Origin: Tubiluchus corallicola
Taxonomy: Eukaryota; Animalia; Priapulida
Direction: 5' to 3'
Assembly: GCA_030141605.1 (NCBI GenBank)
Contig: JAQGDQ010000160.1
Span: forward strand, 372,001 to 436,000
DNA length: 64,000 bases
Shown here: one piece after another, positions 18,100 through 20,525 of the stretch
Layout: every line of letters starts with the position of its first letter
Numbering within the stretch: position 1 is the first letter of the stretch
The notes under the pieces: model-generated
What the model was told of the DNA's origin: nothing
The model's database searches: none
What the model saw: only the letters and a program-made list of their open reading frames with translations
Position numbers and translations under genes: made by a program

Positions 18100-20525
18100 A
18101 TGAATAGTGTGGGGGAAGAGTGTTTAGAGCTCAAAAGAGCATACGACAATTGCTTTAATGCTTGGTTTGGTGAAAAGTTTTTGAAAGGGGACACTACTGA
18201 TTCCTGTGAACCATTGTTTAAAGAGTACCAGGCGTGTGTAAAGGTGAATAGTAATTTGAACTTGGATGTACAGACTTGAGCAGTAATATTATACTGTCGC
18301 AAGTTAGCAGTTACTCAAGTAGCTCATATTTCATAATTTATTCATGTGATTCAGCACACTATCAGGCTGATATTCCCTAGTTTACTGCCTGGCAGCTACG
18401 TTCGTGCTTCTTATTAAATCATGTTAAGCGTTACATTAATTGGGCTGTTTTAGCTAAGAATTCCTTCATTAAAAGGGTTCATTAATGCTGATAATACCAA
18501 CAAAGATTGTGGAAAAAAGGTATACCAGTGTTTAGACTAACTAGTGTGCTGCCTGGACTTTGCCATTTTATTTAGCTGATGTCACCAAATTTATATGTGT
18601 AAACTCATAGATTCATGACATAGTAAAAATGCAACAAAGTGTCGTAACAAAATCAGTTAAGATGGAAAATTCTAGTGATGGACAGCAGAGTGCTGCTAGT
18701 ATCATGCAAGAACTTTGCAAACTTGCTAAGGAACCAAATACAAAATCTCTCGTCAACCCCTCACCAAATTCCATACAGAAACGACCACTATCTCCATGTC
18801 CTGTTGGTGCTTTTGGCAATGGCTCTAAAGCTCTAAGAATAGCACAGGGCCGCCCTGTAGTGTCGACCCAACTGGAACACAAATTGCATGAATTTTTACA
18901 AGAAAAGCAAAGCGAAGGTTGGATAGTGACAAACAAAGTTCTGCAAGCTAAAGCCTTAGAACTGGCAAAAGAGTGCAATGTCAGAGGTACTTTTAAGGCA
19001 TCTCCAAAGTATATCAAACGCTGGAAGCGAAAATATGTTAATAAACCTGTGCGAGATGTCCCTCATGATTATGAAGAAAAGCTTCTAGGATTTTACAATT
19101 CTGTTATGTCAAAACGTATGGAGAGCTCATATTCACTCTCCAATGTTGTGAGTATGTGTGAAGTTTGTGTGCCTTATACTCCGCCTGTCCTTAAACTCCA
19201 TGACCGCGCTGCCGAGGTTATGTTAACTGCTGCGGCTGATGGAACGAAACTTCCTGCTGTGATGATATTTAAAGGTGGAAGTTCTGGCAAACAAACAGGG
19301 TTTGAGGGTTTACAAGTTCCGGAAAATGTAATAGTGCAAGCAACAAATAACGGGTTAATAACTAAAGAACAAATGATTTGGTGGCTTGATAGCATAGTCA
19401 CAGGTGAAGATGAGGATATTCCACCAAGTTTACTTATTTTAAATCGGTCATCAAAGTTTATTTATAATGCAGAATTTGCACAAGCCGTCGATGCTTGTGA
19501 TTGCAAGACTTGTTTTGTGCCAGAAGGTTGCACTCTTTTGTGCAATCCTATTTCAGTGGGTGCAGTGCGACCATTCCTATTGAAAGTTGAAGAGTGCCGT
19601 GCCGCACACATATTAATAGAGAACAAGTTAGCACAATCTACCTCAGAGGACCAGAAGCTTCCTTCCAAACAGGACTTTGTAAATTGGATCTCTACTGCTT
19701 GGAATTCAGTGACAGAAGCAGAGATCAGGAATGCTTTTCTGTGGTGCGGAATTAGTGCACCGTTTGATGGTACTAATAGCCAAAAAGTGTTTGAGCATGT
19801 TCCTTATGTTATACGACGCTTGCAGGCTGTTAACGATGCCTCCGTTAATGCTGGTAGTGATGACGATAATGATGATGGCCTAGATAATAGCCGCAGTGAT
19901 GAGGCTTGTGTTAGTGGTGTTGCTGATGATGAGGAAGATGCAATTGACACTGGTATAAACACACTCTCTCGTGAAGATGACGCAGAAGATGATGAAGACC
20001 TTGAAGACGGAGATGAAGAGGAAACTTGAGTTCAAATAGAAAACTAGGTGAGGGGTTTTGACACAGAGCTCTTTGAAGGGTTTTAATAGGGCCAATCTCA
20101 AAGAGGTGACTCATTCCTTTAGGAATTTGCTTAGAAAATTTCTTGTCTCTAATATTAAGAAGAGTTTGAAAACAATAGCTTATTGTGAATTTGTCATGAT
20201 TCTCACTTGTCGGTCTTACAATTGATAAATACTATTGGTTCTTAGGTTCACATGTTTGCTATATGGAAAAAAGTATAATTTTTAAAAGTTTATAAAAATT
20301 TAATGTTATTAAAAATCAATTAAGGTAATTTTCTAAGCATGTTTTAGTTGCAGTGACATACAACTGCAAATCTGTAGCCTAATATTACAAATATTGTTAC
20401 ATGTTTTACAGAAGGCAATGAAGCAGAAGGGGATCAACTTAGCTGATGTAGAGAAAGACGTTCTTGGGACAGATGCAGAACGCAAACCGCCAGAGAGTAA
20501 ACCTGACAAAATACCTGAGAAATGA
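18100..20525 (+). CDS. TRIAP1: TP53-regulated inhibitor of apoptosis 1 / Mdm35 family twin-CX9C protein (85 aa, 2 exons)
   Basis: Exon 18100-18243 encodes [48 protein letters not shown] (donor GTGAAT). Exon 20412-20525 encodes [37 protein letters not shown] (acceptor TTTTACAG). Closely resembles human TRIAP1 as recalled; absent from the ORF track. Confidence 0.95.
18629..20029 (+). CDS. Pogo/Tigger transposase-derived protein (CENP-B-type HTH, degenerate DDE_1-like domain, acidic tail); probably domesticated
   Basis: Intact 466-aa single-exon ORF. GRP...LEHKLHEF...LQAKALELA...[15 protein letters not shown] is an HTH_Tnp_Tc5-like domain. [26 protein letters not shown] and [23 protein letters not shown] are pogo core motifs. 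D/E-rich C-terminus. The frame is open from 18611, directly after a TAG acceptor. Confidence 0.88.
   Translation: MQQSVVTKSVKMENSSDGQQSAASIMQELCKLAKEPNTKSLVNPSPNSIQKRPLSPCPVGAFGNGSKALRIAQGRPVVSTQLEHKLHEFLQEKQSEGWIVTNKVLQAKALELAKECNVRGTFKASPKYIKRWKRKYVNKPVRDVPHDYEEKLLGFYNSVMSKRMESSYSLSNVVSMCEVCVPYTPPVLKLHDRAAEVMLTAAADGTKLPAVMIFKGGSSGKQTGFEGLQVPENVIVQATNNGLITKEQMIWWLDSIVTGEDEDIPPSLLILNRSSKFIYNAEFAQAVDACDCKTCFVPEGCTLLCNPISVGAVRPFLLKVEECRAAHILIENKLAQSTSEDQKLPSKQDFVNWISTAWNSVTEAEIRNAFLWCGISAPFDGTNSQKVFEHVPYVIRRLQAVNDASVNAGSDDDNDDGLDNSRSDEACVSGVADDEEDAIDTGINTLSREDDAEDDEDLEDGDEEET

What the first reader, a model, noticed from the sequence alone, without database searches (positions are those of the whole stretch)
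18100..20029. Candidate TRIAP1-pogo transposase fusion by alternative terminal exon
Seen: TRIAP1 exon 1 (18100-18243) holds all four cysteines of the twin-CX9C motif (C8, C18, C36, C46) and ends in phase 0. In its intron, on the same strand, a branch-like CTGAT (about 18576) precedes CTCATAG ending at 18610. From 18611 the frame reads ATT CAT GAC ATA GTA AAA ATG CAA..., in frame with the 466-aa pogo ORF, and the acceptor TAG is itself the in-frame stop bounding that frame. ATTAAA at 20308 lies before the normal exon 2 acceptor. Known: host-transposase fusion by exon capture exists (CSB-PGBD3, SETMAR, POGK), and TRIAP1/Mdm35 is a Mia40-imported intermembrane-space chaperone of PRELI/Ups lipid-transfer proteins. 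Inference: one promoter yields either the 85-aa TRIAP1 or a roughly 520-aa CX9C-HTH-pseudoDDE chimera, possibly a redox- or import-sensitive DNA-binding factor linking mitochondria and nucleus. I know of no described TRIAP1-transposase fusion. Caveat: the polypyrimidine tract is weak.
Basis: partly seen in the sequence, partly recalled or inferred. Interest (0 to 1): 0.88.

Follow-up and report, generated by a model that had tools for sequence, protein, structure and literature searches.

The report
Tamed pogo gene inside TRIAP1 intron
An old jumping-gene enzyme that has lost its cutting residues but is kept intact by selection sits inside the intron of the mitochondrial gene TRIAP1 in an invertebrate; it is likely made as its own protein, and the proposed fusion with TRIAP1 is possible but has no read support.

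Summary
All coordinates check out. The 466-codon ORF in the TRIAP1 intron is a domesticated Passer-type pogo transposase. All three catalytic aspartates and the first DNA-binding domain are lost. A spliced-RNA run of a near relative holds it, with 9 of 9 listed differences synonymous, and it groups 100/99 with an uncharacterised Priapulus caudatus protein.

The fusion is unproven. No contig covers the junction in either direction. The 18610 acceptor has a poorer T-tract than all 14 real acceptors read in the window. An in-frame open AG precedes 44% of first ATGs by chance, and ATTAAA occurs in 34% of 380-nt windows. A better acceptor at 18575, with a CTAAC branch motif, is out of frame. On that mRNA all five upstream AUGs have weak contexts and the pogo AUGs strong ones, which suggests leaky scanning.

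Odds: own AUG from the TRIAP1 promoter 0.45, own intronic promoter 0.23, in-frame fusion 0.22. The scan noted other nested pogo-derived genes on other DNA, but none in TRIAP1. Verdict: new member of a known kind.

The parts
18100..18243 (+). TRIAP1/Mdm35 coding exon 1 (48 codons, twin CX9C, phase-0 donor GTGAAT at 18244); its AUG has T at -3 (weak context)
18244..20411 (+). TRIAP1 intron (2168 nt) holding the pogo-derived gene; same intron position as in two unrelated TRIAP1 loci whose introns hold no pogo
18537..18541 (+). CTAAC branch-point-like motif, 36 nt before the exon start at 18576
18574..18575 (+). Best acceptor-like AG close to the pogo start (score -0.21, at the low end of real sites); out of frame with exon 1, so it would give a 56-aa TRIAP1 stub ending at 18602
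   Evidence: use is predicted, not shown
18576..18610 (+).
18629..20029 (+). Domesticated Passer-type pogo ORF, 466 aa; AUGs at 18629 and 18662 both have A at -3
18869..19036 (+). HTH_Tnp_Tc5 (CENP-B second HTH type) DNA-binding domain, aa 81-136; 0 of 65 residues (aa 76-140) differ from P0002
19157..19738 (+). RNase H-like DDE domain with the triad replaced (D>C177, D>N272, D>S309) and a deletion of about 16 aa after the first position
19871..20026 (+). Disordered acidic tail (48% D+E, aa 415-466)
20308..20313 (+). ATTAAA, possible poly(A) signal of a pogo-terminal transcript; not above chance
20412..20525 (+). TRIAP1 coding exon 2 (37 codons + stop)

Best explanation
The ORF in the TRIAP1 intron is a catalytically dead pogo (Passer-type) transposase gene kept by purifying selection, and it is likely translated from its own AUG as a stand-alone, predicted nuclear DNA-binding protein rather than as a TRIAP1 fusion. 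Shown: intact 466-codon ORF, triad lost, first (Brinker-type) HTH lost, second HTH and RNase H fold kept, synonymous-only change in a relative's RNA, and a clade with a Priapulus caudatus protein. Inferred: the gene borrows the GATC/TRIAP1 housekeeping promoter. A minority of transcripts would splice exon 1 to the out-of-frame acceptor at 18575 (or keep the intron) and end before exon 2 or run through it. Ribosomes would then leak past, or re-initiate after, the weak upstream AUGs and start at the strong AUG at 18629 or 18662. The product would act like CENP-B or POGZ: a chromatin-binding factor with one HTH, a dead transposase core as scaffold and an acidic tail.
For: Domestication: 9 of 9 listed differences in RNA contig 19426-19611 of run X2 are synonymous third positions (12 differences in all, 3 near the ends not listed). 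X2 is RNA, as it holds a spliced SPPL3 contig with GT..AG joints. P0002 is 95% identical with no indels: 4 changes in 330 core residues against 21 in 125 terminal residues. Triad D>C, D>N, D>S, where 76, 79 and 75 of 83 relatives have D. Clade with P. caudatus XP_014664944.1 at 100/99 with four other long branches in the tree (99), and 28 rare shared residues against at most 17 for any other row. No convincing terminal inverted repeats. Own AUG: both pogo AUGs have A at -3; all 5 upstream AUGs of the 18575-spliced form, and 8 of 9 in the unspliced form, have a pyrimidine at -3 (about 0.5^5 = 3% by my post-hoc arithmetic; the -3 rule is recalled knowledge). TRIAP1 AUGs at 3 of 4 other loci have a purine at -3. 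The 18575 acceptor scores within the real range and has CTAAC at -36. 0 of 150 pogo relatives carry a TRIAP1 segment. Precedents: ZBED6 in ZC3H11A intron 1; CMC4/MTCP1 shared promoter.
Against: No read shows any transcript structure at this locus. The 18575 route has to pass 5 upstream AUGs including a 56-codon TRIAP1 stub, and the retained-intron route 9. 18575 is itself at the weak end (5 T against 6-8) and only 4th of 34 AGs in 18244-18720. The splice model rests on 14 sites that I picked by reading; 7 SPPL3 sites are backed by a continuous frame and 2 joints by RNA. Whether the Priapulus gene also lies in TRIAP1 could not be checked. The nuclear, CENP-B-like role is inferred from domains alone.
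Confidence: 0.45

Rival explanations
1. Same domesticated stand-alone protein, but transcribed from its own promoter inside the TRIAP1 intron (start somewhere in 18400-18650), independent of TRIAP1 exon 1.
For: Avoids most upstream AUGs. Strong AUG contexts. Solitary PGBD3 is made from a cryptic internal promoter at the CSB locus (PMC3459987, passages). A possible 56-nt 5'-UTR intron (GT at 18520, to the AG at 18575, with the CTAAC inside) would also explain the 18575 acceptor.
Against: No TATA-like motif in 18244-18662, no CpG rise, and no CCGGAA site there, whereas two of the window's four CCGGAA sites lie in the GATC-TRIAP1 gap. These are weak tests.
Confidence: 0.23
2. One reading: exon 1 is alternatively spliced in frame to 18611, giving a 520-aa CX9C-HTH-pseudoDDE host-transposase fusion beside normal TRIAP1.
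For: The frame is open and phase 0 matches. An in-frame AG this good with a CTRAY occurs before only 2.7% of first ATGs (post hoc). It is the only route without upstream-AUG bypass. An alternative acceptor must be weak for TRIAP1 to be made. Passer transposases are often captured as fusions: chromodomain, KRAB and zinc-finger fusions appear among the hits. In 8 of 9 examined fusions the acceptor lies just upstream of the ORF. The transposase's first HTH is lost, as if replaced.
Against: The acceptor is weaker than 14 of 14 real ones, and a better one lies 35 nt upstream. The CTGAT 'branch' is simply the first bases after that better AG. The likely orthologue in P. caudatus keeps its own Brinker-type N-terminus and is annotated without TRIAP1. 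Exon 1 lacks TRIAP1's C-terminal part. Mia40 substrates are mostly 8-14 kDa, largest soluble 32 kDa, so import is unlikely and the CX9C would likely stay reduced (inference). TRIAP1 and mitochondria are not mentioned in the tetrapod fusion survey's main text (0 hits; supplements not seen).
Confidence: 0.22
3. A recent or decaying pogo transposon copy that merely landed in the intron.
For: Pfam DDE_1 and HTH_Tnp_Tc5 match; nearest active-looking relatives are 30-36% identical.
Against: Triad lost yet ORF intact, synonymous-only divergence, conserved core, no TIRs, only near-identical DNA contigs laid on it (6 of 6 at 95% or more), and an orthologue-like protein in P. caudatus.
Confidence: 0.03

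Closest known systems
POGK and POGZ (vertebrate Passer-derived domesticated genes; Gao et al. 2020, PMC7386202, passages read)
   Same: [quoted passage not shown]
   Different: POGK and POGZ are proven fusions to KRAB and ZNF and keep DN35D/DD35D; this one has C/N/S at the triad, lies in an invertebrate TRIAP1 intron, and has no shown fusion partner. POGK/POGZ sequences were not in my tree, so an independent origin is inferred, not tested.
ZBED6 in ZC3H11A intron 1 (PMC5834713, passages read)
   Same: Intronless domesticated DNA-transposase gene nested in a host intron, made as its own protein from host transcripts (intron retention).
   Different: ZBED6 is a BED-finger gene of placental mammals (hAT origin recalled). 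Here the element is pogo, and the upstream host exon is coding, so upstream AUGs must be bypassed.
CSB-PGBD3 (PMC3459987, passages read) and the host-transposase fusions of Cosby et al. (bioRxiv 2020.05.07.082677, passages read)
   Same: Same-strand transposase ORF in a host intron with an in-frame AG just upstream and a poly(A)-like signal downstream; purifying selection on the transposase.
   Different: Those fusions have RNA-supported junctions. Here there is none, the acceptor is weaker than all real ones measured, and the host part would be a mitochondrial import motif, not a chromatin domain.
CMC4/MTCP1 locus (PMC7537572, passages read)
   Same: A CX9C mitochondrial gene sharing its promoter and first exon with an unrelated ORF through alternative splicing, giving two separate proteins.
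   Different: The shared exon there is non-coding, and MTCP1 is not a transposase.
Priapulus caudatus LOC106807186 (XP_014664944.1), uncharacterised
   Same: Best named hit (38%, E 2.7e-51); shares loss of the first and third catalytic Asp, Q>N before the third, and a gap after the first; sister group at 100/99.
   Different: Keeps the first HTH and the second Asp, and lacks the long acidic tail; its genomic position relative to TRIAP1 is unknown.

Membership tests
TRIAP1/Mdm35 (UPF0203) | Twin CX9C helix-loop-helix, Pfam PF05254, about 70-90 aa | tested here: met
   E 1.7e-19; 6I3V E 3.7e-18; 48+37 = 85 aa
Active Passer/pogo transposon | HTH_Tnp_Tc5 + DDE_1 domains, Tc1/mariner-like fold | tested here: met
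   Pfam; model pLDDT 76.8, best Foldseek hits Mos1 and SETMAR transposases, E 4e-5 to 2e-4
Active Passer/pogo transposon | DD35D catalytic triad | tested here: not met
   C177, N272, S309 with 36 residues between the last two; relatives have D in 76, 79 and 75 of 83
Active Passer/pogo transposon | N-terminal Brinker-type HTH | tested here: not met
   Custom HMM finds controls at E 2e-18 and 5e-10 but nothing in six frames of 17900-19000; shuffle p 0.14-0.88; Atlas shows only a weak HTH-like lead, 0.78
Active Passer/pogo transposon | Terminal inverted repeats flanking the ORF | tested here: not met
   Within the intron only short, imperfect pairs flank the ORF (best 22 nt, 77%, overlapping the start region)
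Domesticated transposase gene | Purifying selection on the ORF | tested here: met
   9 of 9 listed nucleotide differences synonymous; 4 of 330 core residues differ against 21 of 125 terminal ones; no formal dN/dS
Domesticated transposase gene | Transcribed | tested here: met
   189-nt contig in RNA run X2 of a near relative; one study, contigs only, strand and level unknown
Domesticated transposase gene | Single copy at an orthologous locus across species | tested here: inconclusive
   Only near-identical DNA contigs laid; sister to the P. caudatus protein; no genome held, synteny not seen
Host-transposase fusion (CSB-PGBD3/SETMAR/POGK type) | RNA-supported in-frame junction between host exon and transposase | tested here: inconclusive
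   No joint at 18243 in X1 or X2, but X2 has no exon 1 contig at all
Host-transposase fusion (CSB-PGBD3/SETMAR/POGK type) | [quoted passage not shown] | tested here: inconclusive
   In-frame AG present, but below 14 of 14 real acceptors and common by chance
Host-transposase fusion (CSB-PGBD3/SETMAR/POGK type) | Polyadenylation signal after the ORF | tested here: inconclusive
   ATTAAA at 20308; chance rate 34% per 380 nt
Host-transposase fusion (CSB-PGBD3/SETMAR/POGK type) | Acceptor and frame conserved in orthologous loci; fusion protein on record | not testable with these tools
   No orthologous DNA found; 0 of 150 relatives carry TRIAP1; a search for longer exon 1 homologues had 1 candidate and 0 hits (weak)

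The most novel reading that the evidence does not exclude
An ancient invertebrate lineage makes, from one promoter, both TRIAP1 and a 520-aa chimera in which a Mia40-type twin-CX9C motif replaces the first DNA-binding domain of a dead pogo transposase. That would be a host-transposase fusion whose host part is a mitochondrial import/redox motif, a candidate mitochondria-to-nucleus sensor.
Probability: 0.22. Interest if true: 0.78.

Novelty: new member of a known kind. Interest (0 to 1): 0.4.

Why it matters
Even without the fusion, this is an apparently undescribed, old domestication of a pogo transposase outside vertebrates. My searches for TRIAP1+pogo, TRIAP1+transposase and priapulid+transposase+domesticated gave 12, 4 and 0 listings, none relevant by title or abstract start. 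It is nested in a core mitochondrial gene and probably read as a second ORF from its promoter, which would add an invertebrate case to the ZBED6 and CMC4/MTCP1 type of nested, co-expressed genes. If the fusion is real, it would widen the host domains captured by transposases to a mitochondrial import motif and give a testable route for redox or import-stress signalling to chromatin.

Tried and rejected
No genome is held for the window. The run search listed no RNA holder; X2 came in by species label. Two lays gave no exon 1 contig from X2 and no joint at the TRIAP1 donor; holes in contigs prove nothing. The X2 piece at 19972-20019 (depth 7439, long loose ends) is a low-complexity match from another gene and was dropped. 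The metagenome scan with the pogo protein gave 598 pattern matches and 0 relatives. The scan with exon 1 gave 4 TRIAP1 loci, none a near relative: 2 with a pogo-free intron at the same place, 2 intronless. The attempt to find the P. caudatus TRIAP1 accession, to test adjacency to XP_014664944, failed: 1 candidate, an unnamed Logan protein. That P0002 begins at the second Met was rejected as evidence, since its 1476-nt contig may simply be cut there. The idea that the pogo N-terminus is homologous to the Priapulus N-terminus was not significant (global p 0.14). Two extra acceptor candidates (18030, 18071) were mis-indexed by one base and dropped. A paper search for the TRIAP1-GATC head-to-head arrangement found nothing relevant. 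No complex prediction was run, as no binding claim is made.

Full report
Setting. The window is AT-rich animal DNA (30-40% GC) with no genome held. A Pfam scan of all 406 stop-to-stop frames of 45 aa or more places TRIAP1 (+) between GATC (-, head to head) and a signal peptide peptidase gene (-, tail to tail). The joined exons of the latter read as SPPL3 (the subfamily name is recalled). Its best named relative for the pogo protein is Priapulus caudatus, so a priapulid host is a guess, not a result.

Observation. Exon 1 (18100-18243) matches UPF0203 at E 1.7e-19 and human TRIAP1 at E 3.7e-18. Exon 2 starts at 20412. The intronic 466-codon ORF has HTH_Tnp_Tc5 (aa 81-136) and DDE_1 (aa 197-370). 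Splicing to 18611 would give 520 aa.

What the ORF is. It is a domesticated Passer-type pogo transposase. Its nearest relatives carry BrkDBD, HTH_Tnp_Tc5 and DDE_1, the architecture given for Passer-derived POGK in PMC7386202 (passages). All three catalytic positions are changed (C177, N272, S309), where 76, 79 and 75 of 83 other aligned relatives have Asp. The first HTH is gone. The AlphaFold model keeps the second HTH and an RNase H-like core (mean pLDDT 76.8; residues 1-20, 36-67 and 415-466 below 50), and its best structural matches are Mos1 and SETMAR transposases. No convincing terminal repeats flank it.

Selection and expression. P0002, an unnamed protein, is 95% identical without indels, with 4 changes in 330 core residues and 21 in 125 terminal ones. 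Run X2 is RNA from a near relative, shown by a contig spliced across two SPPL3 introns. It holds a 189-nt pogo contig with 12 differences; the 9 that the tool lists are all synonymous third positions. Run X1 behaves as DNA (all 30 bins covered), and at 85% likeness it laid 6 contigs on 17400-21300, all 95% or more alike, a hint of single copy.

Age. P. caudatus XP_014664944.1 is the best distant hit (38%). It forms a clade with the window protein and P0002 at SH-aLRT 99 among 42 rows and at 100/99 among 19 rows that include four other long branches. It shares 28 rare residues, against at most 17 for any other of 84 rows. Both branches are long, so attraction cannot be fully excluded. The trees used 41 and 18 of the 150 listed hits, chosen by rank and length, and held no POGK or POGZ sequence.

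Is it fused? There is no direct evidence either way: X2 has no exon 1 contig and neither run shows a joint at 18243. I therefore calibrated acceptors on 14 real sites from SPPL3, GATC and TRIAP1. All 14 have 6-8 T in positions -14..-5; 18610 has 3. It scores -4.85, against a leave-one-out range of -0.47 to 10.2. An in-frame open AG precedes 44% of 1944 first ATGs in the window, one as good as 18610 precedes 18%, and with a CTRAY 2.7%. ATTAAA appears in 34% of 380-nt windows. It is out of frame and would end TRIAP1 after 56 codons, 26 nt before the pogo AUG. None of 150 pogo relatives, the Priapulus one included, has a TRIAP1 segment. Known Mia40 substrates are small, the largest soluble one 32 kDa (PMC5725982, passages).

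How it most likely works. Both pogo AUGs (18629, 18662) have A at -3. All five upstream AUGs of an 18575-spliced mRNA, TRIAP1's own included, have a pyrimidine there, as do 8 of 9 in the unspliced RNA. TRIAP1 AUGs at 3 of 4 unrelated loci have a purine at -3. By the recalled -3 rule this fits leaky scanning or re-initiation. I therefore favour a stand-alone protein read as a second ORF from the TRIAP1 promoter (0.45), as for ZBED6 (PMC5834713, passages) or CMC4/MTCP1 (PMC7537572, passages). An intronic promoter gives the same protein (0.23). The product would be a CENP-B- or POGZ-like chromatin factor with one HTH, a dead core and a 48% acidic tail; this role is inferred from domains.

Results against my reading. 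The own-AUG route from the TRIAP1 promoter must pass 5 to 9 upstream AUGs, and fusion avoids this. Alternative acceptors are expected to be weak. Passer transposases are often captured as fusions (chromodomain, KRAB and zinc-finger cases among the hits). In 8 of 9 examined tetrapod fusions the acceptor lies just upstream of the ORF (bioRxiv 2020.05.07.082677, passages; its supplements were not seen). CSB-PGBD3 makes both a fusion and a solitary transposase (PMC3459987, passages), so the models can coexist. I leave the fusion at 0.22.

Novelty. Searches for TRIAP1+pogo (12 listings), TRIAP1+transposase (4) and priapulid+transposase+domesticated (0) showed nothing on this locus (listings only). 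PMC10027918, a survey of transposon-derived factors in animals, does not mention Priapulus in its main text (supplements not read). Earlier scan notes had no look-alike; two describe other nested Tigger-derived genes. Verdict: a real, apparently undescribed nested domesticated pogo gene, a new member of a known kind, with an untested and less likely fusion isoform. Interest 0.4.

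Noticed in passing
window 8249-17769 (-) and about 21200-29720 (-): GATC lies head to head with TRIAP1 (about 330 nt between the nearest AUGs), and an SPPL3-like gene tail to tail. From memory, human TRIAP1, GATC and SPPL3 are also linked on 12q24.31, which would be very old microsynteny; one search found no paper on it. 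GATC exon 1 was not resolved.
   Followed up: partly
window 17789 and 17963: Two of the window's four CCGGAA/TTCCGG sites lie in the GATC-TRIAP1 gap; the ETS/GABP-type label for bidirectional promoters is recalled.
   Followed up: no
window 26794-27588 and 27592-28386: A 795-nt, 100% identical tandem duplication that doubles one SPPL3 exon; assembly artefact or very recent duplication.
   Followed up: no
window 16271-17557 (-) and 55251-56255 (+): LINE-like reverse transcriptase fragments (Pfam RVT_1); the first lies between the GATC start region and its downstream exons, and is highly repeated in DNA run X1.
   Followed up: no
window 6960-7085 and 46440-47077: A perfect 63-nt tandem duplication, and a diverged minisatellite giving 200-aa open frames on the minus strand.
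   Followed up: no
P0037, P0145, P0114, P0086, P0048: Other Passer-type host fusions among the hits: chromodomain-pogo (Stigmatopora 'MPHOSPH8 isoform', Xenopus protein labelled 'plectin'), KRAB-pogo (Pyxicephalus) and zinc-finger-pogo.
   Followed up: partly
P0004 (XP_014664944.1): The Priapulus model lacks about 32 residues between its two HTH domains compared with relatives; possibly a gene-model error.
   Followed up: no
L002 (upstream of the match at 1544, opposite strand): In this unrelated TRIAP1 locus the head-to-head neighbour is a 288-codon frame that reads like Misato/MSTO1 (the name is recalled, not searched).
   Followed up: no
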